Shown: piece by piece, positions 29,021 to 59,932 of the stretch
Position numbering within the stretch: position 1 is the first letter of the stretch
How the letters are laid out: every line of letters begins with the position of its first letter
Virus record (IMG/VR): IMGVR_UViG_3300020049_008034
Location: 13,549-77,548 of that record
Direction: 5' to 3' (one strand)
DNA from: a virus
Lineage: Duplodnaviria > Caudoviricetes
DNA: 64,000 nt
Made by a program: the position numbers and the translations under genes
Notes under the pieces: generated by a model
What the model saw: the letters and a program-made list of their open reading frames with translations, nothing else
Told to the model about the DNA's origin: nothing
The model's database searches: none

Positions 29021-29024
29021 ACCA

Positions 29025-29056: not shown

Positions 29057-29082
29057 CCTTTTGTTTAAATATAGCATTCTAG

Positions 29083-34607: not shown

Positions 34608-34930
34608 TTATCTTCGTACTTATTAACCTCAGTCTTGAATACGCCACCACCTTTAGCCCGGTTAGGCAGCCAGTCATCCAGTTTTTGAATGAATCGAGTA
34701 AGGGGAGCGAGGTTCTTTTCAGATACGAAAATCCGAAGGAATACTTCGAGAGCTCCAAGCATACCGATAAACAAACCAAGAACTTCGTCCCAGTTGTTTA
34801 CACCCCATGCAATAATTGCTACAAGGAATTTAGCCAAGTCCTTCTCCCATTGCGGAATAGGCTGAGGACCTTGAGCAAGCAAGAAGCTGGCAGATAGAAT
34901 AAAAATAGAAAAAAGAAGGATTTTTTTCAT
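34604..34930 (-). CDS. Signal-peptide plus 2-TM membrane protein (holin candidate)
   Basis: MKKILLFSIFILSASFLLA followed by Q, then two hydrophobic helices. Confidence 0.5.
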   Translation of the reverse strand: MKKILLFSIFILSASFLLAQGPQPIPQWEKDLAKFLVAIIAWGVNNWDEVLGLFIGMLGALEVFLRIFVSEKNLAPLTRFIQKLDDWLPNRAKGGGVFKTEVNKYEDK

Positions 34931-42864: not shown

Positions 42865-44937
42865 TCAGTTGTTTAAATAGAATGAATTGGCGCCCCATAC
42901 TGGTTTTTCATCCGGGGTTTCTTTTTTGTGCTCCATATCCGCAATGAGTGTCCAGCCTGAAGCAACGGCTGTGTCAAATTTTGTTCTCTTGGCGGTTTCA
43001 AAATACATCCACTGGTAAATCAATCTTGGAAGTTTTTCGGCCCAGATGTTTTTAGCAATGTGGGCAGAAAGAAGGTCCACGTAGTTCGATACCAAGTGGG
43101 TAGTTGTTTTTGATCCATGGCGAGCTTCACGCTTTCTTGACAAGCCTGTAATGAGTTCGTGTGGCTCGTATTGCACCAAACCCTTGTATCCTGTTCTCTT
43201 GGCCCATTGTACTAGCCCTGGCTTATCTACCTCTGGGTAGAACTGAACTCCGAAGAACCACGCTGTTAATAACACGTCACGGTAAAAGTCATCCGGGTCT
43301 TTATGGCGGTATTTATAGTCGCAAACAAATTGATTCGTTCGCATATCCCATGTATTGACAACCTCTCCGTTTTCGTCGAACTGTAGCTTACCTTGGTCTT
43401 CATGAAGTAGGTTAAATTTCCGAAAAACAGTGAATGACCCGTCAGATCCTTTGAGTACCGGAACGTCGCTATCGTATGGGTCAACCCCCATGCGGTAGTA
43501 TGGCATATTCTGGGCAACGTAATTATTGCCTCTTTTAAGGATAGCGTTTTCCCGGAACGGCATCTGCGAAAATTGCCAATGTCCTCCCTTTCTTCGGATA
43601 AACTCAACCTCAGTGTTGGGCTTACCGTTTTTCCAAACCAAATCACCTTCGATGATTTCGACCTTTTCGCCGGGTTTATTCCATCTATTCAACCCTTCCT
43701 TGATTTGATTAAGACGGATCTCACACATCCTGGGGTGGAGTGGACAATTAGAAGTTGGTTTTACGAATGCATCCTCAATCGAAGCAGGTTCCTTTCTTTT
43801 AAGCGAAATTATCGCTTCTTCGTTCCCCTGCTCCATTAGGGTTTCCATGCGGTTTTGGCGGTGCTTCTTGGCTTGCTCAACTTTAGGCATCCCAAACTCG
43901 TCCACAATGGCGTTCTTAGTGAAGTCTCTGAATATTCTATAAAGGCCAGAAATAGTTCTGCCGTTCTTATCTCTTTCGTTTGGGTTTGAATCGTCCCAAA
44001 TTTGGGATGCCATTTCAACTGTAGACTTATCTACGTCTGACTCCTTTTCTTCTACCGTGCTGGTTAAGAGGGCTTTACCGTAAACTGTCATCTCGTTATT
44101 TAGCGTAATAACTCGACGTATATTTTCCCATTGAGCCCTAAGTGACATCCTGAAACTTTGGATCTTGAAAATCTCATCCATGTACATTGTGCCGAGTTGG
44201 CTTCCGTCAAACGCTCCTGTCACTGCTGCTTCGTAAGATATAGTAGAGTCTAAGAATTCCCCATAAGACTCCGGGACGACAATGTCTCTTTCTCCTTTCA
44301 TCCGCTTCATTGTTACAACCTCGTTAGGTATATGGAACTGAAGTGTCTCCCCGGTAGATCCAGAATGTTTTGGTTTGAAGAAGTAAGGCATTTTATTGTG
44401 CCCTCTAACTAAGCGATTGTAAGCTTTTTTTGCCTCTGGATCACTATAAGACTGGAGTCCGCCTGGGTAATTAAAGAATCTAGTTGTTCTCTCATAAAGA
44501 ATAAACAATGCTTTTTCGGTTTCACCAATTCTACGTGGCTTTATTGTTATTCCGCCAAGGCAGTGGGGGTCTGGCTCTATTATCATGTAAAAAAACCACA
44601 TAAACTCAAGTGCCTCTAACCTAAAATCTGGTCTCTTGCCTGTATTAGTTGTCCAAAAATCAAAGAACATTGTCGCTGGACCAGGGATATAGTATGGTTC
44701 TCCTTTTATTAGCTGCCACTCCCCGTGCTCCCTCCGATGCCATTGTTGTTCTGCCAGATTATCCAAGTCAAATTCGTTCATTGACTTCAGGTCTGGCATC
44801 TCAAATTTCTTGTACTTTTGCTGACTGATAGGAAGATGATAATTTATCATCTCTCTTTCAATGGGCTGGTCCGGAACAGCAAATGTGTATTCCTCAAGTG
44901 TTTGTGTCAAGCCTTGGTCCCATGTCTTAGTGTACAT
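42865..44937 (-). CDS. terL: Terminase large subunit
   Basis: KPRRIGET Walker A, MYMDE Walker B, GVDPYD nuclease motif, FDTAVASG. Confidence 0.88.
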   Translation of the reverse strand: MYTKTWDQGLTQTLEEYTFAVPDQPIEREMINYHLPISQQKYKKFEMPDLKSMNEFDLDNLAEQQWHRREHGEWQLIKGEPYYIPGPATMFFDFWTTNTGKRPDFRLEALEFMWFFYMIIEPDPHCLGGITIKPRRIGETEKALFILYERTTRFFNYPGGLQSYSDPEAKKAYNRLVRGHNKMPYFFKPKHSGSTGETLQFHIPNEVVTMKRMKGERDIVVPESYGEFLDSTISYEAAVTGAFDGSQLGTMYMDEIFKIQSFRMSLRAQWENIRRVITLNNEMTVYGKALLTSTVEEKESDVDKSTVEMASQIWDDSNPNERDKNGRTISGLYRIFRDFTKNAIVDEFGMPKVEQAKKHRQNRMETLMEQGNEEAIISLKRKEPASIEDAFVKPTSNCPLHPRMCEIRLNQIKEGLNRWNKPGEKVEIIEGDLVWKNGKPNTEVEFIRRKGGHWQFSQMPFRENAILKRGNNYVAQNMPYYRMGVDPYDSDVPVLKGSDGSFTVFRKFNLLHEDQGKLQFDENGEVVNTWDMRTNQFVCDYKYRHKDPDDFYRDVLLTAWFFGVQFYPEVDKPGLVQWAKRTGYKGLVQYEPHELITGLSRKREARHGSKTTTHLVSNYVDLLSAHIAKNIWAEKLPRLIYQWMYFETAKRTKFDTAVASGWTLIADMEHKKETPDEKPVWGANSFYLNN

Positions 44938-46009
44938 CCAAGAATTTTTTAGCTACTTCGTATTTGCGATCCAAGAAATACTTGGGGTCATTTCCGTACA
45001 GCTTTTTCAATAAAACAATAGCTTGCGTTCCGTAGATAGATGTTTTGTAGATATTCCCATCCTTACATGGTTTTGCCATGCTTTCGCAATTTTTTCTGAC
45101 CCATTCTGCGAAAGCGAATACCGCGTCTTTCGACCCGCAAAGCCCAACATAAGGTTTTCCGTAATACTTATCCGTATTTACCCATCCATCCCCATCGATC
45201 ATTCCGCGCCAGAAGTCGGCGTTATTTGCGCAATATTCATACGGCTTGAATGTTAGGCTTTTGTTTGGAGTAATGCCGAACTTCAGCAACGAGCCAACTA
45301 TTCTCTGAGAGCTAAATGTAAAGGCTACGTATTCCCCCTTTTTGGTATTTAGGACATCATGCCCACTCTTACAAAATTCTTTGAATTTATGGAGATGATC
45401 TACATCTCCAGGCTGCAACTCTATTTTTAAGTTCCGCCCGTGAACGTTTCCGTCAGCCCCAATAAATCCCATCCAGTACATTGAATCACGGGTTAGTGAC
45501 TCAAATACCGTTTCATCCAAATCTATTCTTCGAACTGAATCTGCATTTGATCTTCTTTTCTTGTCATGGCGATCCATCATTCTTCGGATGGTATGGTCTT
45601 TTATCCCGTATTCTTTTGCGATGTCAACGCAAGTCATACCGCTTTCATATTTAGCTAAAATATCCGTTTCTTGGACTTTGCTAATATGTCTTCGAGAGCA
45701 CCCACATGAAACAATTCTTCCGTTCTTTACAAAACTTATGTTCTGCGCCTTAGTGACTCCGCATTCACATTTGCAAAAATAAAACTTGATTGCTCCTTGC
45801 TTATGACTAAAGTACAGAATGGTAAGTTTATTAAACTTTTGTCCAATCAGCTCATCTTTCTGCGGCAAAACATCGGATGGCTTGACACCGTATTTTTTCA
45901 TCACGTTGTCTATACAATTTGTAGAAACCCCGTACTCTTTGCCGAGATTGGATCTCGACTCCCCATTGATATACCGATCAATAATTACTTCTTCATCACA
46001 TTGTTTCAT
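44927..46009 (-). CDS. Free-standing LAGLIDADG homing endonuclease with N-terminal HTH/Zn modules
   Basis: WMGFIGADG and FWRGMIDGDG; CKCECG...SCGC; two HTH-like segments. Confidence 0.85.
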   Translation of the reverse strand: MKQCDEEVIIDRYINGESRSNLGKEYGVSTNCIDNVMKKYGVKPSDVLPQKDELIGQKFNKLTILYFSHKQGAIKFYFCKCECGVTKAQNISFVKNGRIVSCGCSRRHISKVQETDILAKYESGMTCVDIAKEYGIKDHTIRRMMDRHDKKRRSNADSVRRIDLDETVFESLTRDSMYWMGFIGADGNVHGRNLKIELQPGDVDHLHKFKEFCKSGHDVLNTKKGEYVAFTFSSQRIVGSLLKFGITPNKSLTFKPYEYCANNADFWRGMIDGDGWVNTDKYYGKPYVGLCGSKDAVFAFAEWVRKNCESMAKPCKDGNIYKTSIYGTQAIVLLKKLYGNDPKYFLDRKYEVAKKFLDVH

Positions 46010-46419: not shown

Positions 46420-47511
46420 TTATAAAGTATAGTCTATCACCGTTGGTTTTGGACCCCCTTCAATAATCATGAATCCGCTCGTTCCTTCTGCCCCCAACTG
46501 TATCCCGTAATCAGTGCTTGGGATAAAAGAAGGTGCGGTTATTTGCCTATAGTTCCGACCATCCGGGCTTCGTTTCACTTGACGAGAATGATTATGCCCT
46601 TGGATAATGATGTTGAACTTATCTTGAGCGCCAAGTCTAAAAATCTTCTCATATGGATCTTGCTTACTTAGAGGCCAATTCCCGTGCTCGGCAATCAATC
46701 TAAACCCATCGTCGTCGGTTACTAAGTAAAATGGATCAAACTTAACTGGATACCCTCTCAACTCAAGGATGTAAGCAATCAAATCGGCAGCTCCGGCTTT
46801 GGAATCATTTTCGGTCTTGTCGCTCATTCTGTCGTGATTACCTCCTATTAGTGTGAATCCGACAAGATTATTGATTTGATCCAAGAAGTGGGCAATAATT
46901 TTGGATGATTCCTTGATCAAGTCTACTCCCCACATCTCAATTGACTTCCATGTATCCGCATGGTTGCGGCCCGTAAAACTCTCTAAGCAATCCCCCAAGC
47001 AGTGTACAATTACTCTTTTGTAATTCCTACTATTAACGATCGCCGCTGTTTCGCTTAAAAGTTCAACAACCTTTTTTAGATTGTATTCCTTGTGGATAGC
47101 CCCCATATGAAGATCAGAAATAATGACGTGAGCAATTTGCCCTTCTACTTCCCTGATCTCATACTTCGGCAGCCCTTCGGCAAATTCTTTAAACTGCTCT
47201 ACTTCTAATGGTCTCGGGACTACCTTGATCTTTAGTCGGTGGTTTTGAACCGTTATTGGTCCATCCGGGCCTTTGATCGGAGTTTCCCAATATGTAGACT
47301 CGATAGGACGAGCCATGTATTTTTTTGGGTCGACTTTATGGTATTTCATTAGGTCGTCAGCCGTTCGGCATGGACCTTCAAAAACAATCTCCCCGTCTTC
47401 ATATTCATACAGGAGAGATCCAGGGCCATCGACTCTTGCTTTTTCTAGAAGCAGCATCCATTGTTTGTACTCATCTTCTGAGGAGTACGTAAGTCTTGGT
47501 CGTATTTCCAT
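46420..47511 (-). CDS. Calcineurin-like metallophosphoesterase
   Basis: SDLH, LGD, GNHD, EHG and GHNH motifs. Confidence 0.85.
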   Translation of the reverse strand: MEIRPRLTYSSEDEYKQWMLLLEKARVDGPGSLLYEYEDGEIVFEGPCRTADDLMKYHKVDPKKYMARPIESTYWETPIKGPDGPITVQNHRLKIKVVPRPLEVEQFKEFAEGLPKYEIREVEGQIAHVIISDLHMGAIHKEYNLKKVVELLSETAAIVNSRNYKRVIVHCLGDCLESFTGRNHADTWKSIEMWGVDLIKESSKIIAHFLDQINNLVGFTLIGGNHDRMSDKTENDSKAGAADLIAYILELRGYPVKFDPFYLVTDDDGFRLIAEHGNWPLSKQDPYEKIFRLGAQDKFNIIIQGHNHSRQVKRSPDGRNYRQITAPSFIPSTDYGIQLGAEGTSGFMIIEGGPKPTVIDYTL

Positions 47512-47515
47512 GCAA

Positions 47516-47547
47516 CAAAAATAGTAACAAATTCTTTAATTTGCAAC
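47516..47547 (-). promoter_or_regulatory. Promoter 4 nt upstream of phosphoesterase ATG (packaging operon)
   Basis: GTTG, 20-nt spacer, TATTTTTG, TTGC, ATG. Confidence 0.65.
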
Positions 47548-48048
47548 TATTAGTGTTGATTTTTCGCTTACCCATCTCTTGCCTCTCCGAAAGAAGATTT
47601 CTTTATTATACTCGAAGACATCTTGAGAGTACCAAGTTATCCGCTTATTGCCGATTTTATCATTTTTGATTGTTACTTCGATGCCGTTCAGTTTCCATTT
47701 GCCTCTGATGGTGTCTCTTGGTCCATCCGGGCTCTTTTTAAACAAATCGTTTAGCTGTTTAGTCGGCTGACGAAGCCTTGTCAAATAAGATTTCTCTTGT
47801 TCTTCCCAAGCAAGCTTGGCGTATCGGTATTGAAGGGCAGCATCGTATCGTTCGTTCACGAGTGTCCTTAAGACAAGAGAATCAGTATTGGTAAATGGAA
47901 ATTTTTGATAAATAATTGAGTCTCCGATATTGGTAAAGGTTTCCTTGAACCAAGTCGAGTCTTTGTTGGATCGAACCCCTTTTGAGTAAACAATGGAGTC
48001 TTGTTGAGCAAAAGAGAAAAAAGGAATAAAAAGAAGCAAATATCTCAT
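47536..48048 (-). CDS. Secreted hypothetical protein
   Basis: Start at 48048: MRYLLLFIPFFSFA followed by QQ. Confidence 0.65.
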   Translation of the reverse strand: MRYLLLFIPFFSFAQQDSIVYSKGVRSNKDSTWFKETFTNIGDSIIYQKFPFTNTDSLVLRTLVNERYDAALQYRYAKLAWEEQEKSYLTRLRQPTKQLNDLFKKSPDGPRDTIRGKWKLNGIEVTIKNDKIGNKRITWYSQDVFEYNKEIFFRRGKRWVSEKSTLIVAN

Positions 48049-48058
48049 GGATGTTGTT

Positions 48059-50992
48059 TTAGTTGCTGTAACGATATTTGTAAACCCCACTGCGAAGCCC
48101 CGCCCGTATATGTATACCATCGCCAGCAGCAGGGTAGTAATTAGTCACAAGCCCGTTTGTGCTGTCCACCGCGTTATTTGTTCCGAATACAATCTTGTTA
48201 TCAAATCCGGCTGGTTCATCTACGGAGTGAATCAGGTATTCGACCTGCATTAGGTTTGCGTCTGGAGTGTGTAATGTCAACTCACTATCGCTTCCCGCCG
48301 CGCCCGTTGTGGTCATCCAGAAAATTACCCGGTTGTAACGGCGTGCTATCTGTGCTGTCGTTATGGCTGCGGAAAAGTCGTAATCCGCGTCCGTGACGTA
48401 GATGGTGGTATCTCGCTTTTGCTCTACATTCAATACCGTTCCGTCCGTTGCAAAGCCAGTAAGCGTCGAAAATGTTTTACCTAGGGCTGCTGCGGTTTTT
48501 GTGTTTGTACCGTATTTTGAAAAATCAATAGTCCCATTTTTTCGGATCACAAAAAGGTTTGTCCCTGCATCCTCCACACTCAAGAACTTACCCGTTGCTA
48601 CACCAAGTCCGTTCACGTTGTTGAACCTGAAATGTGTTGTATCAATACTTGTTGAACCAGCCGAAGTAAACCACAGTGATTTCGGGATTGTATTTGTTTT
48701 AGTCCCAAGTCGAATAAACGCCCAACTTGACCCTGGCACAATAGCCGTATCAAGAGAAGCTGATAAGTAATTTTCCGTAAAAGATGTTTTTGGGTCTAAA
48801 ATGTAATGTTGCGATACATATCTTTCTCTTTCTGCATTGCGATATATTTCATAGGCAGATTCAAAATTTAACCCACTACCAAGTAGGTTAGAAAGGTATA
48901 GCCCGCCTAGCCATCCTGAACTAGATTGAGAAGACATTGAGTAATATGCGCCTTGATTTGCGGCATAGGTTGTTTTTCTTGAAATAATCCCATTGCCCAC
49001 AACTAGATTTCCATTATAAATCCAATCGCCATTTGTGATATTATTATAGGGTTGTCGAATTGTTTTTGAGCCAGAGGAAGTAATTGATCCACCAAAAAAA
49101 GCAGACACAAACATTCCCTCTTCGTATATAATCGTTCTACCACCACCGCCAACTCTGATTGTCCATGTAATGCCGTCGGGGCTAGTGGCTACACCACCCG
49201 CATTATCACACGCAACAAATAGCCCGTTTCCAAAAGTGACATCGTACCATGTGCCACTAGCCAGTGTTCGTATTGTCCATGTTGTAGCGTCGGGCGAAGT
49301 CATCACTCTGTTAGTGCCATCTGAGGAAACGGCTACAAATAGGTTATTTGCGAATGTAACCCCCCTCCATTGATTTGCCGCTGCTGCTGTTCGACCAGTC
49401 CATGTTATCCCATCAGGACTAGTCATTACTCGGTCGGTTCCTCCGTAAGCAACCGCGACGTACAGCCCGTTTGCGTAAATAACCCTGTGCCAATTACTAG
49501 ATACTGCACTTCTTGCAGTCCATGTTATCCCATCAGGACTAGTCATTACTCGGTTAGTTCCGTTGTCTGAAACGGCCACAAATTGATTGTTTCCGTATGT
49601 TACATTAAGCCACTGATTCGCTTCGGCTGCACTTCTTGCAGTCCAGGTTATACCGTCGTTTGATGTAGCAACTCGGTTAGTGCCATTATAAGAAACAGCT
49701 ACGAATATGCCATTCCCATACGCCACGCTAGACCACTGGTTTGCAGCGGGCGCGGTTCGTTCCATCCAGCTTCTACCGTCTGTCGAGGTAAATATTTTCC
49801 CATTAAATGAACACGCCACAAAACGATTATTGCCGTAACAAATTCCGATTAATGAAGGTGAGCCAGTAATCGCCGTGGTATTCCAGGTTATCCCAGTGGA
49901 TGAAAGTAGTTCGGAATTGGTTATTGCAAGACCATTTCCTGTTGCTGTGGAACCTAAATCTCCGTCATTGTCCGCTCCAACTAGACGAATGGGAGCATCG
50001 GTTGTTAGGTCGGTAATTCTTACTTCACCTGTAACATCAATAGTTCTCTGTGGGTTAGTGTTCCCAAATCCAGTCCTTCCGGTTGGGGCAAGATACATCC
50101 AGTTGTTCCCAAACGCGATAGGGTATGTATTTCCATTTGTTGTAAAATCTACTCGCTCAAGACCGTTTCTCCAATACAATCCCCCCGTTTTTGTTGCACT
50201 CTCACCTACCTCCATGCCGTAGTAATCGGAATCTTTTATCAGCCCAAGCCCTACCGTTTGCGTTCCAGATACTTGTAAATCCCAACGAGTACTTGCAAGG
50301 TCAGCCCCATAGAAAGTATAGGCACTACCACGCTGCCAAGGGGTAAAAATTTCATCCCAAGCAGAGCCGTTGTAAAATTCTGGATAATTGTTAGATGTAT
50401 TGAATCCCGTGTACCCCGTCGTACCCGCAGGTCTGCCCGCTGTTGTCCACTGCCCGAACTGCCAGGGCTTGGAGTTCAAGACTCCGACGTAGGTGTTGTT
50501 ATCAAATAAATTCCTTGCAACTAGGTTAGTACCGTTTGAGGTGGCCACATATCCAGTCGCAATTATCGTAGGAAGGGTTTTGGCGAACAGTCTCGTTGCT
50601 AAACCGTTTGGAGAAGTAGTGTCTGCTCGAATTGTTTGTCCTGTCTTGATAATCCCATATCCTACTAACTTAATATAGGCAGCAAGCATAGAGGTTGTAT
50701 CAGTCTTTAAGAGATAAGGAGTCAGGTTAATGGTATCTCCGTTGACGATTGCTGTGGTGCCAGAAATTTGTGTTAAGTAAAGTGTGTCTGGAGTGATGGA
50801 TGGTTCTACTACTTTAACCCAGACGTTAGTATGAATCCAGCGGTAGAAGCTGGAATCAACCGGGCGATAGGCAAATTTTGGGCCTGTTGCGCTAGAAGAT
50901 GGGAATGTAGATCCTATTTCAATCACACCATAAGCCCGGTTAATTTGAGCTGACAGGAAGATTGGGAACAAAAGAAAGAATAAAATTCTCAT
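48059..50992 (-). CDS. Fibre/receptor-binding-like protein with beta-propeller (TSPDGITWT repeats) and signal peptide
   Basis: MRILFFLLFPIFLSA then Q; about six 40-aa blades; beta-helix-like spacers. Confidence 0.75.
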   Translation of the reverse strand: MRILFFLLFPIFLSAQINRAYGVIEIGSTFPSSSATGPKFAYRPVDSSFYRWIHTNVWVKVVEPSITPDTLYLTQISGTTAIVNGDTINLTPYLLKTDTTSMLAAYIKLVGYGIIKTGQTIRADTTSPNGLATRLFAKTLPTIIATGYVATSNGTNLVARNLFDNNTYVGVLNSKPWQFGQWTTAGRPAGTTGYTGFNTSNNYPEFYNGSAWDEIFTPWQRGSAYTFYGADLASTRWDLQVSGTQTVGLGLIKDSDYYGMEVGESATKTGGLYWRNGLERVDFTTNGNTYPIAFGNNWMYLAPTGRTGFGNTNPQRTIDVTGEVRITDLTTDAPIRLVGADNDGDLGSTATGNGLAITNSELLSSTGITWNTTAITGSPSLIGICYGNNRFVACSFNGKIFTSTDGRSWMERTAPAANQWSSVAYGNGIFVAVSYNGTNRVATSNDGITWTARSAAEANQWLNVTYGNNQFVAVSDNGTNRVMTSPDGITWTARSAVSSNWHRVIYANGLYVAVAYGGTDRVMTSPDGITWTGRTAAAANQWRGVTFANNLFVAVSSDGTNRVMTSPDATTWTIRTLASGTWYDVTFGNGLFVACDNAGGVATSPDGITWTIRVGGGGRTIIYEEGMFVSAFFGGSITSSGSKTIRQPYNNITNGDWIYNGNLVVGNGIISRKTTYAANQGAYYSMSSQSSSGWLGGLYLSNLLGSGLNFESAYEIYRNAERERYVSQHYILDPKTSFTENYLSASLDTAIVPGSSWAFIRLGTKTNTIPKSLWFTSAGSTSIDTTHFRFNNVNGLGVATGKFLSVEDAGTNLFVIRKNGTIDFSKYGTNTKTAAALGKTFSTLTGFATDGTVLNVEQKRDTTIYVTDADYDFSAAITTAQIARRYNRVIFWMTTTGAAGSDSELTLHTPDANLMQVEYLIHSVDEPAGFDNKIVFGTNNAVDSTNGLVTNYYPAAGDGIHIRAGLRSGVYKYRYSN
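49398..49554. repeat. Exact 37-nt direct repeat at 120-nt spacing within propeller blades
   Basis: GTCCATGTTATCCCATCAGGACTAGTCATTACTCGGT at 49398-49434 and 49518-49554. Confidence 0.9.
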
Positions 50993-51123
50993 ACTTGTCG
51001 AATTCTTAGTAGCCCATCGTAAATTGAGTAGTAAAGACCCCCAATAGGTACTCCGCCAGCGGCAGCAGTGCCATCGTCGTCATAGGCTCCGTAAATAGCA
51101 AATCCTTTGTTGGTTGCGTACAT
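50989..51123 (-). CDS. 44-aa micro-protein (below ORF-track cutoff)
   Basis: MYATNKGFAIYGAYDDGTAAAGGVPIGGLYYSIYDGLLRIRQV; overlap-coupled at both ends. Confidence 0.6.
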   Translation of the reverse strand: MYATNKGFAIYGAYDDDGTAAAGGVPIGGLYYSIYDGLLRIRQV

Positions 51124-52877
51124 CACTTATATTGGAAAAAGAACACATCACCACTAATAGCGGCGACTGCTAATGTTATGGTTACTGGTTCAGTTGACGC
51201 CACAGTGTAGTCTACCCCTGGGCTTAAAAATAGTCCGTTTTTGTATAATGAAAACCTAATATCGTTGAAGATTCCTAACTCTACACTCTCCGTGAAAGTC
51301 AAAGTAGTTCCAGTTACCCCAGTTACACGCTCATCAGAGGTGAAAGTTGCTGATGGATCGTAGAAGTTGTCTTCAGCCCAATACCAAGTTCCGTTAATTT
51401 GCCTGCATGTCCATGTCCCAACTGATTGGCGCCCAGCATTTATTGATGAGAATGTAAATGCCGTTCCTGCTAGAGTTGTGGGGCTCATGGCCCAAAACTC
51501 ACTTGTTGCTGAAGCTGTGTTTAATACCACTCCGGTGTACCCAAAGTCCGTAGCAGTATAAGAAACAATTACCGATCTTCCAGCCAGTGCTGAGCTGGGT
51601 TCTGGAAGTGTTAGGGTTCTTGAAGTACCGGAGGTCAGGTAGTAGGAAACATAAGTAGTGATTGACGAGTTTACTTGGGTTGAAATATCTACAGCCGCGT
51701 CAATTGCGCTTACATGCGCCGTGGGGTAAACTTGAGTGTAAGGAACCACTTGCCCTGAGCTCGTGATACCGAGAGTTTGGGTTGCTGTGCCTGTTCCTAA
51801 ATTATTAAAAAAGACTCGACCGTCATCATGGAAAACAAACCGGTCATTCGATACTGAGGTTAGCGTTAAGATAGGAGTGGAGTTTGATGAGATCTTTCGG
51901 AGATACCCCAACCCTTTCCCGCTGGAGATTGTGTCGTTAACGATAAATGCCCCGTTGACCCCTGGTTCTACATTCCCTACTAAAACAGTTCTTGCGTTAG
52001 TGTTTGTCCCAACCGATAAAACGTTTCGAGTGTTGTTTGCGTTATAGAAGTTTAAATACTTGGAAGTTGTGCCCCCGAACTCGATTTGGGATGGGAGGTT
52101 GTATGATAACAGTTTTAATCCCGCGTAACCGGTACTGGCTCCGCTTTCTATCAATAGATTTGTTGAGGAGTTTGCAGCGTTTCTCATTGAGAACGGATAG
52201 GTATTGTTTGTGCAAAACTTACCCAGAACTATGTCTCCTTTTATGACTGTTGTGTCTTGAGCAGGATCGTGAATGAACGAGGAGTCGGAGCCTATCTTCA
52301 TCCGGGCGTCAAATTGAATTCGAGTGTCTCGAATTCTCAAGTCTGAAGAAGCTGCTCCGTCGATGTCTACATCTCCAAGTGGGAGTGCGGAGATAATTCC
52401 GTCATTGTCGATGTTTGCTGATTTGGTTTCGATCCACATGTACCCGCCCATGGCATTATCTGATACCGAATAGATCCCGGTTTCGAGTTCGGTTATAGTG
52501 CTTACTAGTTGAAAGGCATTTAGGTCATTACCAGTAAACGCAAGTCCGCACGACCCACCAGGCGAATTTAGCGCCATGACATAGATGGTAGTTGATTTGA
52601 AATCTAATGATGCTTCAGGGACTCTAAGTGTTGCTGAACTAGAATTTGCACTAAGGACAAAAACAATCTTTCGGAATCTCGAAAGATCAATTGAGTCTTC
52701 AATTGAATAGGTGACGTTTTCAACCGTTATCGTTGTGTCTACTAAAAGATCCAGCCGGATGGCTTCTGCTGTGTCAGTTAATGCCGACTGGGTTGCAAAC
52801 GACCCGGCTTGAATGATCTTTTGAGCTGATACCTGAAATGTAATCAATCCAAGTAAAAATATGAATAGTATTCTCAT
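51123..52877 (-). CDS. Fibre-like protein with signal peptide
   Basis: Start 52877 MRILFIFLLGLITFQVSA then Q; C-terminal LYKNGLFLSPGVDYTV...GDV motif common in phage tail proteins. Confidence 0.7.
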   Translation of the reverse strand: MRILFIFLLGLITFQVSAQKIIQAGSFATQSALTDTAEAIRLDLLVDTTITVENVTYSIEDSIDLSRFRKIVFVLSANSSSATLRVPEASLDFKSTTIYVMALNSPGGSCGLAFTGNDLNAFQLVSTITELETGIYSVSDNAMGGYMWIETKSANIDNDGIISALPLGDVDIDGAASSDLRIRDTRIQFDARMKIGSDSSFIHDPAQDTTVIKGDIVLGKFCTNNTYPFSMRNAANSSTNLLIESGASTGYAGLKLLSYNLPSQIEFGGTTSKYLNFYNANNTRNVLSVGTNTNARTVLVGNVEPGVNGAFIVNDTISSGKGLGYLRKISSNSTPILTLTSVSNDRFVFHDDGRVFFNNLGTGTATQTLGITSSGQVVPYTQVYPTAHVSAIDAAVDISTQVNSSITTYVSYYLTSGTSRTLTLPEPSSALAGRSVIVSYTATDFGYTGVVLNTASATSEFWAMSPTTLAGTAFTFSSINAGRQSVGTWTCRQINGTWYWAEDNFYDPSATFTSDERVTGVTGTTLTFTESVELGIFNDIRFSLYKNGLFLSPGVDYTVASTEPVTITLAVAAISGDVFFFQYK

Positions 52878-52878
52878 T

Positions 52879-55461
52879 TTAGTAGTCTTTAGCTTCATAA
52901 GAAATTGTTACTGAAGTAGCTGTTACTGCTGCTCCTGCTGCGTCGAACACGCGGACTTTTACACTTCCTGTTGCTTTGGTATGAGCAGAAAGGATATAAG
53001 CTGTTGTTCCTTCGTTTTGCGAAATTACAGTGTACGTTGCATCAGGCATGGCGGCAGCGAAGGTTATAGTTAGGTCGCCGGAACCATCTGTGCTTCCTGT
53101 GGTGACGCCATGCTGGGAACGGAGAAATGAGGGAACTCCTGCTGTCCAAATTTGGTTTGAGATTGCGCCAGATGCATTATTCGGGGCTACGTTTGCAAAG
53201 GAATAATATCTTAGTTTAACTTGTCCATTTGAGTATATATGGAAAAGGGAATCTGTTGAATGCATGAGGCTGAAAAAATTAGTGCCAGTTGTTGTTCCTT
53301 TGTAAAGATAACTGTGCCTATTATTCCTTTGATTTGAATAAAACACGTGCCTTGTGTAAAATCCATTCGCACCAAAAAGAGAGCCAATTTGTCCATGAAT
53401 AATGTCGTTATTTCTCCCAGCTGTAGTAGTATCTTGAGCCACATATAAGATGTTAGAAAACGTACCTCTATTTTCAGTAACTAACGCATATCGGTAATTG
53501 CTAGTTTGAAGCTCTCCACCAGCCCATCCTTGATTCTGCTCAAGCTGAATATAATTATTACCGAGATAATCCGAGACTTTGAATCGACTTGAACCTAAAT
53601 TTGAGAAAACTCCGACCTCAAAACCACCAAGTAGTGAAATCTTTCTGTTCTTAGCGGTATTCTCAAGTGAGACAACGGCTGTACCGACTGGGTTGATCGT
53701 AATGACTGAATCATTACCGACGTAAAATTTACCATCCTGCTTTAATGCAGCAATTGTACCTGTTGAATTTTGAAAATCAACCAGTTTCTTGTTGGCATGG
53801 TAAGATGTTACATTCTTAAACAGAAAACTTCTTTTTGAGCTTTCATAACTAGTCGTAGCGTAGAATTCAGTACGTCCTCCCCATACACCAAAGGGGTCTC
53901 CATAAGCATGAACAACTTCACCTTCTGTTGTTATATTCATCGCGTCGTGGGGTACTGCATATCCATTCCAAGGCAGGTATGTTATATCGAAAAACCTAGC
54001 ACTGTAACCTGCTGAAGCAGTATGAACTTCCCTATCGAATGAATATCCACCACTTCCGCTTACTCCAAAACCAGCATTCCATCCAGAAGCGTTATTACCT
54101 TGTAATCCAAAGTATTTACCTCCAGCAGAATTCGTCCACATAGTACTAAACCCGTCAAAATTATAAGAATGTGTTCCGTTAACAATGCGTAAAGGGTAAG
54201 CATTATTAATACTTACTGTATCCAATGGTAATGCAGAAATGATTCCATTCCCGTCTGCATTTTGAGCCATTAAATTAAATCCTACAATTGGATTCAGAAT
54301 CAACTTACCATTAAGAACTTGGAAGAGAGGTACTTTAGTAGTATCTGCTGTAAGTGAATAACCAGGACTAGCTGATGTAAACCAGTATAATCCATTAGTC
54401 AGTGAGGTCGTATAAGTCCCACAGTTAGCTACTTTGAATGTATTAGCAGTTAAGCTATCTACTACAATGTAGTCTGGAACTAAACTGTCATATGGAGGTC
54501 TTACATAAGTAGAACCTGTCCAGTAAATAGGCGTCCATTTTCGGAAACCGTGTGATGTTTTAGTCAGAGTTTGTTCGCAGTTCGCGGTTCCTGATCCTCC
54601 GGTTTTCGGATTGATTACCATCCTTCCATCTCCATCCACACTCGTCACAGTTAAAACCTGCCCAACACTCCCGCTAGAATTAAATCTAACCGCTACCGAA
54701 TCCCCAATTCGTAAACTCGCATTATTAGCCCCATTTACGAATTGAAAGTTAGCACCGGTTGTGTCGACGAAAATTCTAGACACTTTGGTTGCGCTAGACG
54801 TTCTTAGTGTGATTTGGTTGTTTTCTTGTAAAAGCCTTGAAAGCCATCCATCAATAGTTTTTGTTGTCAAGCTTACTCTTCGGGTGTTAGTTAAACTTAG
54901 GGCCGTAGAATCAGCTACTACTGAGAAATCCCCGTCAGCAAGGTTATGGAGGCCGAGGTCGGGTTTATCGACCGTCATTACTAATCCACTCCCACTCACG
55001 ACTACATCGCCGTAGTCGCCGTCTGAGAGTGTAGCAAGGCCGCTCGACACGGCTCGTTGGAAACAAGAGATGGCCGAGTCTACGACTACTGAGTAACTTT
55101 CGGTTGTTGTAAAGGTGACATTGATGTCTTTGATGTAAATTAACGCTTTGTTCCCGGATGTTGAATCGATCCGGTTGATCCACTGTCGACCAATGGCGAC
55201 TTTTTGGCTGTTGGCGCTGTTTGTGACTTTAATGAAATATTGGCCATATCCCTCTACTAAATTAAAGATGGACCGAGGAGAGGTGACGTAGGCGTTTCGG
55301 CTGGAGATGTACAACCGGGTTCCAGATGAAATTGAGTCGGCGTAACGAACTTCGTCAGCGCATATCAATCGATAGGAATCAGTTTTAATTAGACACTGGG
55401 AGTACAAATTGCCGAGCGTAGCGCTCAGCATAACCAGTAAGCATATTCCTTTGTTTTTCAT
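52879..55461 (-). CDS. Fibre-like protein with signal peptide and gp53/H-lectin-like C-terminus
   Basis: Start 55461 MKNKGICLLVMLSATLGNLYS then Q; DGDYGDVVVSGSG motif; TITFAAAMPDATYTV. Confidence 0.7.
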   Translation of the reverse strand: MKNKGICLLVMLSATLGNLYSQCLIKTDSYRLICADEVRYADSISSGTRLYISSRNAYVTSPRSIFNLVEGYGQYFIKVTNSANSQKVAIGRQWINRIDSTSGNKALIYIKDINVTFTTTESYSVVVDSAISCFQRAVSSGLATLSDGDYGDVVVSGSGLVMTVDKPDLGLHNLADGDFSVVADSTALSLTNTRRVSLTTKTIDGWLSRLLQENNQITLRTSSATKVSRIFVDTTGANFQFVNGANNASLRIGDSVAVRFNSSGSVGQVLTVTSVDGDGRMVINPKTGGSGTANCEQTLTKTSHGFRKWTPIYWTGSTYVRPPYDSLVPDYIVVDSLTANTFKVANCGTYTTSLTNGLYWFTSASPGYSLTADTTKVPLFQVLNGKLILNPIVGFNLMAQNADGNGIISALPLDTVSINNAYPLRIVNGTHSYNFDGFSTMWTNSAGGKYFGLQGNNASGWNAGFGVSGSGGYSFDREVHTASAGYSARFFDITYLPWNGYAVPHDAMNITTEGEVVHAYGDPFGVWGGRTEFYATTSYESSKRSFLFKNVTSYHANKKLVDFQNSTGTIAALKQDGKFYVGNDSVITINPVGTAVVSLENTAKNRKISLLGGFEVGVFSNLGSSRFKVSDYLGNNYIQLEQNQGWAGGELQTSNYRYALVTENRGTFSNILYVAQDTTTAGRNNDIIHGQIGSLFGANGFYTRHVFYSNQRNNRHSYLYKGTTTGTNFFSLMHSTDSLFHIYSNGQVKLRYYSFANVAPNNASGAISNQIWTAGVPSFLRSQHGVTTGSTDGSGDLTITFAAAMPDATYTVISQNEGTTAYILSAHTKATGSVKVRVFDAAGAAVTATSVTISYEAKDY

Positions 55462-57433: not shown

Positions 57434-57710
57434 CTTTTGTTTGATTTACCACCCGTAGTTGGCGGTCTTCGATGAAGAAATCCTTACCGTGAGGAAGTAG
57501 AACTCGGTCGCCTACTTTGTATGGGCAAGGGTGGATACCTATGGCCCACTTAAGTCTGGCGATGAATGGGTAATCAGGGAGGTAGGGTGGACCGAGAGAT
57601 ACGACCACACCCCAATCTTCTTTGATTTTTTGGGTATAAACTGATGAACCAGATTCCGTGGGTTCAATGACTGCGAACCCACGGTTGGTTTTAAATTGTT
57701 CTGTGTACAT
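57408..57710 (-). CDS. groES: Co-chaperonin GroES-like
   Basis: GVVVSLGP...KVGDRVLLP; directly downstream of GroEL. Confidence 0.75.
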   Translation of the reverse strand: MYTEQFKTNRGFAVIEPTESGSSVYTQKIKEDWGVVVSLGPPYLPDYPFIARLKWAIGIHPCPYKVGDRVLLPHGKDFFIEDRQLRVVNQTKVEVYERAN

Positions 57711-59160
57711 TGTTGAATTCTCGGATTAATGAATAAGCCGATTTGATCGACTCGTTGACAACATCGGCTGATTCCCAAATGTCAGCTTCATCCGGGCTCA
57801 TGTGTTTTTTGGTTCGGAAATTGTAAACCGTTCCGCCTTCGTCGAGATCCATTGACCGCAACAGTTTTTTACGCGGCTCGTAGATCGCCTCTCCGAATCT
57901 CTCATACCCTTCTTTGTAAGCTTGTTCGGAGATCTTAAAAAATGAATATGCGCATCCGGGAACTACGCCATTTTTTAAGACGGAAATAGAAGAAATAGCG
58001 CAGTCTTCAATCGAATCCCCGATAAGCCGGTGTTCAGCCTCGGTGTCTCCGCCGATGTAGATGAAACCGACACCCTTTGATAACTTGGAAAGTCTTTCCT
58101 CGATGTCATCTTGGTTTTCGGGTGTGATTTGAGCTTTCAGGTCATCGATCAACTTTTGAATTACCCCGAGATCTTTCATTTTGATCCGAGAGTACCCTTG
58201 TTGCCCTGGGCCAGACTGCGTGAGCTCGATTTCTTCGGCTTCTCCGAGGTCTGCGAGTTCGAGGCTTGTTCCTTTGATCGGGAACAGGAACTTAGTAGAC
58301 TGAGAGAACACTGTCGCCCCAGTTGCTTTTTTGATGTCTTCAAAAGAATACCCATCCTTCCATCCTGCGGCTAGGAAAATCGGAAGCCCTCTGTGTGATT
58401 TGCGAACACCGTTGTGCATCCATTCCCTTGGGGTGAGGTTGTCTAAAACTGCTTTAATAGCGGGTTTGGCGATCTCTGTTCCGAAAATAACAAGTGGGCG
58501 GTCTGTTCCAAGTTCCATGTATTTTTGGATAATCAATCCCATTTGCTGATCTCCCATGATAGCATCGTGAACCAACATAACATATGGGTTCTTGAGAACC
58601 ACGGAGTTGTGCGTATACTCGGCATGTGGGGAACGATTCATGAAGTCCGGAGTGTAAAGACCCCCGTCTGTCACATATCCTTCCTTGATTTCGATTCTCG
58701 TTTTAGAGCCGATGTTCGAAATAGGAACGATGTATGCGTGAGTACCAAGCTCCCAAATTAGATCAGCAACAAGTTTAGACTCTGGTCGACCGTTACCGGA
58801 AATCCCGGCAGCTTGGTAAAATTGTTCTTTAGTAGCCTCTTCACCTTTGACTAAGAATTGATCGATGTCAACATCTTCCCAGTTTTCCAAGAAAGCCCCT
58901 GCCAGGATGGCAGTAGTTGTTGTGCCATCTCCGGCCTTTTTGACTGTGCGGTTACAAGCGTCCGCTAGAAGTCGGGCTCCAGTATCGTCTGGTTTGGCGT
59001 TGATGTACTGCATCAATGTCTTAACGCCGTCTCGTAAGATGACGGGATGTGGGATGCCTTCTTGTTTAGAAAATAGAACATTTCCTCCGTTGGGACCGAA
59101 AGTTGTACCTACGGTGTCTGCTGCGTCCTTGATTTGGACGGCGATGTCAGTTTTTGTCAT
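57691..59160 (-). CDS. groEL: Phage chaperonin GroEL-like (489 aa)
   Basis: TFGPNG, DGVK, GDGTTTT, IEDC and GVVPG motifs. Confidence 0.92.
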   Translation of the reverse strand: MTKTDIAVQIKDAADTVGTTFGPNGGNVLFSKQEGIPHPVILRDGVKTLMQYINAKPDDTGARLLADACNRTVKKAGDGTTTTAILAGAFLENWEDVDIDQFLVKGEEATKEQFYQAAGISGNGRPESKLVADLIWELGTHAYIVPISNIGSKTRIEIKEGYVTDGGLYTPDFMNRSPHAEYTHNSVVLKNPYVMLVHDAIMGDQQMGLIIQKYMELGTDRPLVIFGTEIAKPAIKAVLDNLTPREWMHNGVRKSHRGLPIFLAAGWKDGYSFEDIKKATGATVFSQSTKFLFPIKGTSLELADLGEAEEIELTQSGPGQQGYSRIKMKDLGVIQKLIDDLKAQITPENQDDIEERLSKLSKGVGFIYIGGDTEAEHRLIGDSIEDCAISSISVLKNGVVPGCAYSFFKISEQAYKEGYERFGEAIYEPRKKLLRSMDLDEGGTVYNFRTKKHMSPDEADIWESADVVNESIKSAYSLIREFNNVHRTI

Positions 59161-59932
59161 AAATTACCCATTTGCCGGTTGAAGAAGTAATTTTTAAACC
59201 CCTTGCTACGGCGTTATCGATGTTTTCTAGTTTGTATTTCTTGATTGTTCTCCACAGTTTCTTGTCGTACCGACTATCGGTAGCGTATGGGCTTTTATGA
59301 AACACATAGCACCACTCAGCGGTAGACAACTCTTTCCCTTGGGCATTCTTGATCACCCGGTAGTTAGATAAAATTTTGGCCTTACGTTGCCATCCATGCC
59401 ACTGCGTAGGCATGATTTCGTAATAGTCGTTAGACCCCTCGATTTTATCATACCCACGAATACAAGTTGGTGTTTTCTCTAATTCGAGCCTTGCGTGAAT
59501 TCTCCTTAATCTTTTTGACCCATTACACCGACATTTAATATTACCGCTGTTGTTTGTTTTTTGGGTTAACTTGGATTTCCCGAACCTAGACTCTAATGCG
59601 TCCTGAGCGATTAAGACGGATGGGGGACAGCCGATTAGCTCGGAATATGTTACCGCTCTTTTGATAATTTCTCCGTGAGCCAAGTAGTCTCGGATCATTT
59701 TATCAGAGACTAATTGATCGAGTGATACCGATTCTGTAGCTAATGCCAGTGGAGTTCGGTGAGTCGTAAGCGGTGTATCTACGAGTTTTGGTCTAATTAC
59801 ACTGACTAATGTCTCTTCGTCGCTCTCCTCGAAACAAGCGATAGGCTGTTCGGGAGGAAGGATGGCAGCGTTGCACAACTTGTAGTCTTTTACAGCAGTT
59901 AGTGCGATTAAAATAATAAAAAATCTAAGCAT
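59147..59932 (-). CDS. Glucosaminidase (GH73/FlgJ-like) with N-terminal hydrophobic anchor
   Basis: IAQDALESRFG, NNSGNIK and YATDSRY motifs. Confidence 0.85.
   Translation of the reverse strand: MLRFFIILIALTAVKDYKLCNAAILPPEQPIACFEESDEETLVSVIRPKLVDTPLTTHRTPLALATESVSLDQLVSDKMIRDYLAHGEIIKRAVTYSELIGCPPSVLIAQDALESRFGKSKLTQKTNNSGNIKCRCNGSKRLRRIHARLELEKTPTCIRGYDKIEGSNDYYEIMPTQWHGWQRKAKILSNYRVIKNAQGKELSTAEWCYVFHKSPYATDSRYDKKLWRTIKKYKLENIDNAVARGLKITSSTGKWVIYDKN

What the first reader, a model, noticed from the sequence alone, without database searches (positions are those of the whole stretch)
47536..55461. Four tandem genes in the virion region, three of them fibre-like, all carry Bacteroidota Sec signal peptides with +1 Gln
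Seen: MRYLLLFIPFFSFA|Q (48048), MRILFFLLFPIFLSA|Q (50992), MRILFIFLLGLITFQVSA|Q (52877) and MKNKGICLLVMLSATLGNLYS|Q (55461). The three large proteins carry tail-fibre-type modules (beta-propeller, NG...DYT...GD module, gp53/H-lectin-like end). Established: tailed-phage fibres normally fold and assemble in the cytoplasm without signal peptides, while +1 Gln is the hallmark of Bacteroidota SPI substrates. Inference: these receptor-binding-like proteins are exported to the periplasm or surface. They might be added to virions only at lysis (avoiding cytoplasmic sensing by defence systems), or displayed on the infected cell or lysogen as adhesins or decoys.
Basis: partly seen in the sequence, partly recalled or inferred. 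Interest (0 to 1): 0.82.

Follow-up and report, generated by a model that had tools for sequence, protein, structure and literature searches.

The report
Phage tail fibres carrying export signals
An uncultured crAss-like phage of Bacteroidota puts its host's own secretion signal on all of its tail-fibre-like host-recognition proteins, so these parts probably fold (and are probably sugar-tagged) in the periplasm, away from the cytoplasm where tailed-phage particles are built.

Summary
Four minus-strand genes (47536-55461) start with classical Sec/signal-peptidase-I leaders that end in a small residue followed by Gln. A strict pattern finds 7 such N-termini in the contig, against 0.05 per shuffled proteome. 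Three are true fibre or tailspike proteins. P0004 ends in an AP22-gp53/R-pyocin tip fold. P0003 ends in CBA120-TSP4/T7-gp17-like domains. P0002 carries a beta-propeller. All are mosaics whose relatives swap in esterase and lyase modules.

The leader and the +1 Gln are kept in almost all full-length relatives. The Bacteroidota periplasmic O-glycosylation motif is enriched and is conserved as a motif even where its residues change. Both points argue for real export. No T9SS tail or lipobox is present, so the periplasm is the likely destination.

In cultured Cellulophaga phages phi18:3 and phi10:1, leader-bearing proteins at the same genomic position are recorded as virion proteins by MS/MS.

Best reading (about 0.55): the fibres mature in the periplasm and join particles at lysis. 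Main rival: they are free envelope-acting proteins.

I found no paper describing this. This scan has noted the same habit in at least 87 other genomes.

The parts
52879..55461 (-). P0004: 860-aa fibre/tailspike-like preprotein, first gene of the cassette. The N-terminal half is conserved in the family; C-terminal halves are swapped among relatives.
   Evidence: 86 relatives. The N-terminal half is 70-80% identical. Relatives' C-terminal halves carry SASA (PF03629), GDSL (PF13472/PF00657), Pectate_lyase_3 (PF12708) or propeller modules.
55399..55461 (-). P0004 signal peptide MKNKGICLLVMLSATLGNLYS, predicted cleavage before Gln-Cys.
   Evidence: Sequence. Relatives carry MKYLLFLFPIFLQA|QC and other leaders followed by Gln. 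It overlaps the 3' end of the upstream gene in another frame.
52882..53175 (-). P0004 C-terminal tip domain (residues 763-860).
   Evidence: AF2 pLDDT is above 90 here. Fold matches: AP22 tail fibre gp53 (4mtm, Z 10.2, rmsd 2.2, 86 aligned), R2-pyocin fibre (6cu2, Z 9.2), cyanophage Pam1 tailspike RBD (7eea, Z 8.9).
51123..52877 (-). P0003: 584-aa fibre-like preprotein.
   Evidence: Full-length relatives all carry a leader followed by Gln. Residues 158-372 are shared with P0004-family proteins. AF2 mean pLDDT is 72.6.
52824..52877 (-). P0003 signal peptide MRILFIFLLGLITFQVSA, cleavage before Gln.
   Evidence: Sequence; strict-pattern hit; modelled as a detached low-confidence helix.
51126..51728 (-). 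P0003 C-terminal pair of beta-sandwich domains (residues 384-584).
   Evidence: CBA120 TSP4 N-terminal gp10-like region (7rej, Z 10.7, 162 aligned; rmsd is high because the two domains are oriented differently). Residues 511-584 match podophage tail-fibre/tail-complex domains (9efk Z 8.7, 8ck1 Z 7.6, T7 gp17 N-terminus 7boz Z 6.0). BFVD hits are tailspikes, tail fibres and gp10.
50989..51126 (-). Conserved 45-aa gene without a signal peptide, between P0003 and P0002.
   Evidence: Counterparts sit at the same place in L004 (44 aa) and L006 (58 aa) and share the GAY..D..AA..GV..G..YY motif. No family hit.
48059..50992 (-). P0002: 977-aa mosaic fibre-like preprotein. Modules: N-terminal 1-220, shared core 142-348, propeller, C-terminal 802-977.
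   Evidence: Close relatives (778-1259 aa) keep the leader and the mature start QINRAYGVIEIG but differ in their middle and C-terminal modules.
50948..50992 (-). P0002 signal peptide MRILFFLLFPIFLSA, cleavage before Gln.
   Evidence: Sequence; strict-pattern hit; kept in P0005, P0006, P0008, P0061 and P0114.
49073..49828 (-). P0002 beta-propeller (about residues 389-640) with repeated S-x-D-G-x-T-W blades.
   Evidence: Pfam DUF6242, 5.6e-08. More than 3000 hits share it. They include T9SS-tailed bacterial surface proteins (PF18962) and leaderless phage fibres with Peptidase_S74 or tail-collar N-termini.
47536..48048 (-). P0001: 170-aa exported partner protein that always follows a P0002-type gene.
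   Evidence: The partner gene is present in L002, L003, L004 and L005. There are 46 relatives at 65-100% identity. No family or fold assignment.
48007..48048 (-). P0001 signal peptide MRYLLLFIPFFSFA, cleavage before Gln-Gln.
   Evidence: Strict-pattern hit. The +1 Gln and the following Asp-Ser are invariant in 24 aligned sequences, including distant partners, while the leaders themselves diverge.

Best explanation
The cassette encodes the phage's receptor-binding gear: three mosaic fibre/tailspike proteins plus a small conserved partner. All are made as preproteins.

Shown or well supported:
- Each starts with a Bacteroidota-type Sec leader.
- The fold and module make-up are those of phage tail fibres and tailspikes.
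- The leader is an integral, conserved part of these families.

Inferred mechanism:
1. SecYEG moves the unfolded chains into the periplasm.
2. Signal peptidase I cuts before Gln.
3. The host glutaminyl cyclase turns the new N-terminus into pyroglutamate.
4. The host's general O-glycosylation system decorates the D-S/T-(A/I/L/V/M/T) sites.
5. The proteins fold and oligomerise in the periplasm.

None has a T9SS tail or a lipobox, so they stay in the periplasm. Fibreless particles are built in the cytoplasm. When the lysis proteins breach the inner membrane and cell wall, particles and fibres meet and dock.

The last step, joining the virion, is the least certain. It rests on cultured analogues, not on this phage.
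For: Leaders.
- Anatomy is canonical.
- 7 strict-pattern N-termini, against 0.05 per shuffled proteome and 0 of 294 internal Met sites.

Conservation.
- 73 of 86 P0004-family hits have an h-region followed by small|Gln. The other 13 are fragments or a variant with a possible upstream TTG start.
- 20 of 35 P0003 hits have it; nearly all the rest are fragments or small one-domain proteins.
- All close P0002 relatives have it.
- The +1 Gln is invariant in the P0001 alignment while the leaders diverge.
- Bacterial T9SS cargo proteins with the same propeller domain, which must use Sec, have leaders of the same form.

O-glycosylation motif, observed versus shuffles.
- P0001: 5 vs 0.5 (p <= 0.0005).
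- P0004: 13 vs 3.3 (p <= 0.0005).
- P0002: 8 vs 3.9 (p = 0.03).
- Most other proteins of the contig have none.

Motif-level conservation.
- P0001 sites stay valid in 40-46 of 46 relatives, even where the triplet is identical in only 4-6.
- P0004 site 325 is valid in 42 of 43 relatives and identical in 4.
- The motif is glycosylated only in non-cytoplasmic proteins (PMC12871550).

Fibre nature: and the module swapping.

Same layout elsewhere. Runs of 2-6 consecutive leader-bearing fibre-like genes sit beside head, tail or lysis genes in L003, L004, L005, L006 and L007.

Virion link.
- phi18:3 gp085-087 and phi10:1 gp091-094 start with a leader followed by Gln.

Q-rule biology: PMC5837995, PMC10653852.
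Against: - No dedicated signal-peptide predictor and no experiment were available. Cleavage, pyroglutamate and glycans are all inferred.
- Virion membership is not shown for this phage. The MS/MS notes come from database records of unrelated fibre sequences, and abundant exported proteins could co-purify with particles.
- The contig is rated about 48% complete, so leaderless fibres may lie elsewhere.
- crAss001 gp22-26, Cellulophaga phi14:2 g080-g086 and Elemovirus fibres have no leader. In crAss001 the first 26 residues of gp22 dock in the tail hub (PMC10172136). Cytoplasmic assembly is therefore the norm even among relatives and on the same host genus.
- The motif is not enriched in phi18:3 gp085-087 or in P0003.
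- The shuffle controls keep composition only, and relatives are not independent samples.
Confidence: 0.55

Rival explanations
1. The proteins are exported but never join the virion. They would act as free periplasmic or envelope-associated glycan-binding or glycan-modifying proteins in the infected cell. Possible roles: destroying or masking receptors, blocking superinfection, or loosening the envelope or capsule so that progeny are not trapped on debris.
For: - Export is supported as above.
- Family members carry SASA and GDSL esterase and pectate-lyase modules that act on surface glycans.
- The cassette lies outside the head-tail block, next to early and lysis-type genes such as GroEL, glucosaminidase and amidase.
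- Phage-encoded exported exclusion proteins are well known (T4 Spackle/Imm, T5 Llp; own knowledge).
Against: - The folds are those of virion fibre tips and fibre-docking domains.
- The pattern of a conserved N-terminal module with swapped distal modules is the signature of virion receptor-binding proteins.
- In L003 and L007 the leader-bearing genes occupy the place where fibres are expected, and no other fibre candidate is nearby.
- The cultured analogues were found in particles.
- Periplasmic proteins without a surface route cannot reach surface receptors.
Confidence: 0.25
2. The proteins are displayed on the surface of the infected cell or on vesicles, as adhesins or decoys.
For: The propeller module is shared with T9SS-secreted bacterial surface proteins. 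The leaders give entry to the secretory pathway.
Against: - No T9SS C-terminal domain: Pfam PF18962 does not appear at E <= 0.01 and NCBIfam gives nothing at E <= 1.
- No lipobox in P0001-P0003. P0004 has Cys only at +2, after Gln.
- No beta-barrel was seen in the models.
Confidence: 0.08
3. The hydrophobic N-termini are not cleaved export signals. They would be membrane anchors or assembly handles that stay on the protein, or they do nothing.
For: - No predictor or experiment was available.
- P0004's leader is weaker than the others.
- In one sub-lineage the canonical start of that leader is missing.
- Uncleaved signal-anchor sequences occur in phage lysis proteins (own knowledge).
Against: - Small residues at -1/-3 and an invariant +1 Gln point to cleavage by signal peptidase I under the Q-rule (PMC5837995).
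- Leader sequences drift freely while keeping the n-h-c form.
- Motif-level conservation of a periplasm-only glycosylation motif.
- In the P0003 model the leader is a detached, low-confidence helix.
Confidence: 0.07

Closest known systems
Leader-bearing 'structural proteins' of cultured Cellulophaga phages: phi18:3 gp085-087 (podovirus, Pachyviridae, NC_021794) and phi10:1 gp091-095 (siphovirus, Assiduviridae, NC_021802)
   Same: - Runs of 3-5 large genes beside the lysis, terminase or tail-end genes.
- Each starts with a Sec leader followed by Gln.
- phi18:3 shares a distant terminase, portal and muzzle-like protein with this contig.
- Seven of the eight are noted as found in particles by MS/MS.
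   Different: - No detectable sequence similarity to P0001-P0004.
- No enrichment of the glycosylation motif in phi18:3.
- The records do not comment on the leaders, and I found no paper that does.
Tail fibres of Crassvirales: crAss001 gp22-gp26 (PMC10172136) and Cellulophaga phi14:2 g080-g086
   Same: Short-tailed, crAss-type virion plan. A cluster of several fibre or tailspike genes lies next to the portal and terminase. A relative of this contig (L006) has a Crass_capsid protein.
   Different: Those fibres have no leader. The first 26 residues of gp22 sit in the tail hub, so they are assembled uncleaved in the cytoplasm.
Bacteroidota Sec / signal peptidase I substrates obeying the Q-rule (PMC5837995, PMC10653852), including Q-rule genes of unknown function in Porphyromonas gingivalis prophages (PMC10367356)
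   Same: The n-h-c leader, a small residue at -1 and Gln at +1. The precedent shows that Bacteroidota phages encode such substrates.
   Different: The published phage cases are genes of unknown function, read as modifying the host envelope. Here the substrates are the fibre/tailspike proteins themselves.
Branched tailspike systems of CBA120 (TSP1-4) and G7C; AP22 gp53; R-type pyocin fibres
   Same: gp10-like docking domains (P0003), a lectin-like trimeric tip fold (P0004), and enzyme modules such as SGNH esterases in family members.
   Different: All of these are made and assembled in the cytoplasm without leaders (own knowledge). In P0003 the docking-type domains are at the C-terminal end, not the N-terminal end.
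Filamentous phage coat proteins (Ff g3p, g8p)
   Same: Virion proteins that carry cleavable Sec leaders (own knowledge).
   Different: Those virions assemble at the membrane and are extruded without lysis. This is a tailed, terminase-packaged phage.

Membership tests
Bacteroidota Sec/SPI Q-rule substrate | N-terminal leader with a basic n-region, an uncharged hydrophobic h-region and a short c-region | tested here: met
   Sequences. The strict pattern hits P0001-P0003; P0004 fits by eye and through its relatives.
Bacteroidota Sec/SPI Q-rule substrate | Small residue at -1 and Gln at +1 of the cleavage site | tested here: met
   A|Q, A|Q, A|Q and S|Q. The Gln is invariant in the P0001 alignment. 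73 of 86 P0004 relatives have it.
Bacteroidota Sec/SPI Q-rule substrate | Actual cleavage and a pyroglutamate N-terminus | not testable with these tools
   Needs N-terminal proteomics. No SignalP-type tool was available either.
Bacteroidota general O-glycosylation substrates | D-S/T-(A/I/L/V/M/T) motif in a non-cytoplasmic protein | tested here: met
   Enriched in P0001, P0004 and P0002. Valid motifs are kept across relatives despite residue changes. Not significant in P0003.
Bacteroidota general O-glycosylation substrates | Glycan attached to the motif | not testable with these tools
   Needs glycoproteomics.
Phage tail fibre / tailspike receptor-binding proteins | Folds characteristic of fibre tips or fibre-docking domains | tested here: met
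   P0004 tip matches 4mtm (Z 10.2) and 6cu2 (Z 9.2). P0003 matches 7rej (Z 10.7) and podophage tail domains. Most of P0004 is modelled poorly (mean pLDDT 47.5).
Phage tail fibre / tailspike receptor-binding proteins | Conserved proximal module with exchangeable distal modules | tested here: met
   In L005 one gene joins the P0004 N-terminal half to the P0003 C-terminal end.
Phage tail fibre / tailspike receptor-binding proteins | Physical presence in the virion | not testable with these tools
   Only analogues in phi18:3 and phi10:1 carry MS/MS notes.
Phage tail fibre / tailspike receptor-binding proteins | Trimeric assembly | not tested
T9SS cargo | C-terminal sorting domain (PF18962/TIGR04183 or type B) | tested here: not met
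   No such hit in Pfam at E <= 0.01 or in NCBIfam at E <= 1 for any of the four. Bacterial relatives of the propeller do carry PF18962.
Bacterial lipoproteins (SPII substrates) | Lipobox with Cys at +1 | tested here: not met
   P0001-P0003 have Gln at +1 and no Cys nearby. P0004 has Cys at +2 after Gln (S-Q-C), which is not a lipobox.

The most novel reading that the evidence does not exclude
A tailed dsDNA phage builds its virion in two compartments. Heads and tails assemble in the cytoplasm. The receptor-binding fibres are exported by Sec, trimmed, pyroglutamylated and O-glycosylated by host periplasmic enzymes, and dock onto particles only when lysis merges the compartments. The virion would then carry host-made glycans on its fibres. 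The trait is patchy but widespread among Bacteroidota phages of several morphotypes.
Probability: 0.5. Interest if true: 0.9.

Novelty: new variant of a known kind. Interest (0 to 1): 0.78.

Why it matters
Textbook assembly of tailed phages takes place entirely in the cytoplasm. Fibres that pass through the periplasm would change several things.
- They would add a new assembly step: docking at lysis.
- Phage infectivity would depend on the host's Sec system, signal peptidase, glutaminyl cyclase and O-glycosylation machinery.
- They could place host glycans on virions, which bears on stability, protease resistance and recognition in environments rich in Bacteroidota.
- They would affect how receptor-binding proteins of these phages should be expressed for host-range work: without the leader, or in a Bacteroidota periplasm.

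The question can be tested directly with the cultured Cellulophaga phages phi18:3 and phi10:1.

Tried and rejected
Family searches.
- Pfam, PHROGs and NCBIfam on the four proteins gave only DUF6242 and a weak propeller hit for P0002.
- tblastn of P0003 and P0004 against 50,697 GenBank phage records found nothing.
- An ESM Atlas feature search for P0001 scored 0.76, below the noise level, so no lead.

Ideas dropped.
- T9SS tail and lipobox were looked for and not found.
- I considered that the 108-aa leader-bearing gene at 34604-34930 is a fibre-docking hub like crAss001 gp39. I rejected this because the protein has two further membrane helices and looks like a small membrane protein.
- I considered that leaders on fibres are a host-determined universal. 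I rejected this because phi14:2, on the same host genus, crAss001 and Elemovirus all lack them.

Not run or not usable.
No trimer or partner test was run.
- The monomer model of P0004 is poor outside residues 290-390 and 763-860, so nothing is claimed for the rest.
- The paper behind the Cellulophaga MS/MS notes was not held under the PMC id I recalled, which may be wrong, so purification details could not be checked.

Literature.
- Searches for phage fibres with signal peptides found no description of the phenomenon.
- One search on 'crAss' was wasted on unrelated words.
Full report
**What the window is**

The window is bases 13549-77548 of a 77.5-kb linear IMG/VR virus contig that CheckV rates about 48% complete.

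On the minus strand it carries, in transcription order:
- lysis-type genes: Amidase_3 at 60381-61007, and a glucosaminidase with a hydrophobic N-terminus at 59147-59932;
- a GroEL-like gene at 57691-59160;
- the cassette in question;
- a metallophosphatase-type exonuclease at 46420-47511;
- a 137-aa gene;
- a homing endonuclease;
- the large terminase at 42865-44937;
- a portal, a capsid protein, a muzzle-like 1075-aa protein and a 1972-aa protein.

The terminase is 24% identical to those of the Cellulophaga podoviruses phi18:3, phi19:3 and phi13:2 and of the Flavobacterium Elemoviruses. The portal and the muzzle-like protein also match phi18:3 weakly. A more distant phage that carries fibre genes of the same families (L006) has a Crass_capsid protein.

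So this is a crAss-like or Pachyviridae-like short-tailed phage of Bacteroidota. The cassette lies just upstream of the packaging genes, not inside the head-tail block.

**The observation**

Each has one to three basic residues, an uncharged hydrophobic stretch, a small residue at -1 and Gln at +1.

A strict regular expression for this anatomy hits seven N-termini in the contig. These are P0001, P0002, P0003, the small gene at 34604-34930, and three small early genes upstream of the window. It hits no internal Met site out of 294, and 0.05 N-termini per shuffled proteome.

P0004's leader is less hydrophobic and misses that pattern. Most of its relatives have a strong leader, MKYLLFLFPIFLQA|QC.

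A fifth, 45-aa gene without a leader sits between P0003 and P0002. It is conserved in two related loci.

**The proteins are fibre/tailspike proteins**

- P0004. The monomer model is poor overall (mean pLDDT 47.5), as is usual for trimeric fibres. Its last 98 residues are confident. They match the tip of the Acinetobacter phage AP22 fibre gp53 (Z 10.2), R-type pyocin fibres (Z 8.8-9.2) and several tailspike C-termini, with H-type lectins further down the list.
- P0003. The model has mean pLDDT 72.6. It ends in two beta-sandwich domains like the gp10-type docking region of CBA120 TSP4 (Z 10.7). The last domain resembles podophage tail-fibre and tail-complex domains, including the N-terminus of T7 gp17. 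Hits in the viral structure library are tailspikes, tail fibres and gp10.
- P0002. It carries a propeller found both in T9SS-secreted bacterial surface proteins and in ordinary leaderless phage fibres.

All three are mosaics.
- The N-terminal half of P0004 is 70-80% identical in proteins whose distal halves are sialate-esterase-like, GDSL-esterase, pectate-lyase-like or propeller modules.
- P0003 shares an internal module with P0004-family proteins.
- P0002 is built from at least four exchangeable modules.
- One relative fuses the P0004 start to the P0003 end.

This is the evolutionary style of receptor-binding proteins.

**The leader belongs to these families**

- 73 of 86 P0004-family hits have a hydrophobic core followed by small|Gln. 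The other 13 are fragments, or a variant whose leader may start at an upstream TTG.
- Full-length P0003 relatives and all close P0002 relatives have a leader.
- In the P0001 family the leaders diverge freely (MRYLLLFIPFFSFA, MKHIFLFLFIASTLSA, MKQIFIFCIVLFAMPAMA), yet the +1 Gln is invariant, even in the distant partner genes of L002 and L003.
- Other phage lineages show runs of four (L006) or six (L007) consecutive leader-bearing fibre-like genes, placed after the capsid and portal genes and before peptidase or holin-like genes.

**Independent sign of a periplasmic life**

Bacteroidota O-glycosylate D-S/T-(A/I/L/V/M/T) sites, and only in non-cytoplasmic proteins (PMC12871550).

Motif counts against composition-preserving shuffles:

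| Protein | Observed | Expected | p |
|---|---|---|---|
| P0001 | 5 | 0.5 | <= 0.0005 |
| P0004 | 13 | 3.3 | <= 0.0005 |
| P0002 | 8 | 3.9 | 0.03 |
| P0003 | 5 | 3.4 | not significant |

Most other proteins of the contig have none. The one other enriched protein (16994-17590) also has an N-terminal membrane or lipoprotein-like segment.

The sites are conserved as motifs rather than as residues.
- In 46 P0001 relatives the five sites remain valid motifs in 46, 40, 46, 46 and 43 sequences. The triplet is identical in only 43, 6, 35, 44 and 4.
- In the P0004 family, site 325 is valid in 42 of 43 and identical in 4. Site 414 is valid in 28 of 41 and identical in none.

Caveats: relatives are not independent, and phi18:3 gp085-087 show no enrichment.

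**Where the proteins go**

None has a T9SS C-terminal domain or a lipobox. The periplasm is therefore the expected destination, not the cell surface.

**Link to virions**

- In Cellulophaga phage phi18:3, three genes at the matching position begin MKNKITIIMILMSISFGYS|Q, MKKTIYILSILLLTISGVSA|Q and MKHTFSIVLFFILSIGLNA|Q. They lie upstream of the lysis genes and the terminase. All three are annotated as virion or tail proteins 'based on experimental MS/MS proteomics analysis'.
In this siphovirus the five genes after the tail genes (gp091-095) all start with a leader followed by Gln. Four of them carry the same MS/MS note. The N-termini of gp093 and gp094 match those of phi18:3 gp086 and gp087 over the leader and the first mature residues (gp093 fully, gp094 with a few changes).
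- By contrast, crAss001 gp22-26, phi14:2 g080-086 (also MS-verified, on the same host genus) and Elemovirus fibres have no leader. The N-terminus of crAss001 gp22 sits in the tail hub (PMC10172136).

The trait is therefore lineage-specific and patchy, not imposed by the host.

**Most likely mechanism and its rivals**

The best reading is periplasmic maturation followed by docking at lysis. Export itself I put at about 0.85-0.9, the fibre nature at about 0.9, and virion incorporation at about 0.6. That gives 0.55 for the whole chain.

The main rival (0.25) is that the proteins act as free periplasmic or envelope-directed glycan-binding or glycan-modifying proteins. Surface display (0.08) and uncleaved anchors (0.07) are less likely.

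**Known or new**

- Published: the Q-rule itself (PMC5837995, PMC10653852), and a remark that P. gingivalis prophages encode Q-rule proteins of unknown function (PMC10367356).
- My literature searches found no paper that describes Sec leaders on tail fibres of tailed phages, or explains them.
- Within this scan the same habit has been noted in at least 87 other genomes, with the same cultured analogues. This window is one more well-supported instance. It adds motif-level conservation of the glycosylation sites and the conserved exported partner P0001.

**Limits**

- No signal-peptide predictor and no multimer prediction were available.
- There are no experimental data for this phage.
- The genome is incomplete.
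- The MS/MS evidence is taken from database notes.

Noticed in passing
window 50989-51126 (-): A conserved 45-aa gene without a leader (MMYATNKGFAIYGAYDDDGTAAAGGVPIGGLYYSIYDGLLRIRQV) sits between the P0003-type and P0002-type genes. Counterparts lie at the same place in L004 (44 aa) and L006 (58 aa). Function unknown.
   Followed up: partly
contig upstream of the window (window coordinates -10990..-10784, -5254..-4928, -4311..-3949; lipoprotein-like -4897..-4700): Three small early-region genes start with the same kind of leader followed by Gln (MKNLTFAFLFIPFLSFS|Q, MKTLIFILFPFFLSA|Q, VKYLLLLLPFPLFS|Q). One has a lipobox (LIALSSC). The phage therefore sends at least nine proteins into the secretory pathway.
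   Followed up: no
window 34604-34930 (-): A 108-aa protein inside the head-tail block has a leader followed by Gln and two more membrane helices. It looks like a small membrane protein, possibly holin-like.
   Followed up: partly
window 16994-17590 (-): A 198-aa protein with an N-terminal membrane or lipoprotein-like segment (AFGLNKC) and a coiled coil. It has 4 O-glycosylation motifs against 0.6 expected (p 0.003). Possibly a spanin-type lysis protein.
   Followed up: no
window 59147-59932 and 60381-61007 (-): Two cell-wall hydrolases lie upstream of the cassette. One is a glucosaminidase with a hydrophobic N-terminus (signal-anchor or SAR type). The other is an Amidase_3 protein.
   Followed up: partly
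window 27830-29077 (-) and 44927-46009 (-): Selfish elements inside the late region. One is a TnpB (OrfB_IS605 plus a Cas12f1-like TNB domain) between tail genes. The other is a homing endonuclease between the cassette and the terminase; it is absent from relatives L004 and L005.
   Followed up: partly
L005 1888-4476: A natural chimera of 862 aa that joins the P0004-type N-terminal half to the P0003-type C-terminal end. That phage has two large fibre genes instead of three.
   Followed up: partly
L014 (phi10:1 gp093, gp094) and L009 (phi18:3 gp086, gp087): A siphovirus and a podovirus of Cellulophaga share leader-bearing fibre genes whose first 50 residues are the same (gp093/gp086) or nearly so (gp094/gp087). 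Exported fibre genes therefore move between morphotypes.
   Followed up: partly
window 63447-63998 (-): The C-terminal part of a copper monooxygenase (Cu2_monoox_C, 5e-11).
   Followed up: partly
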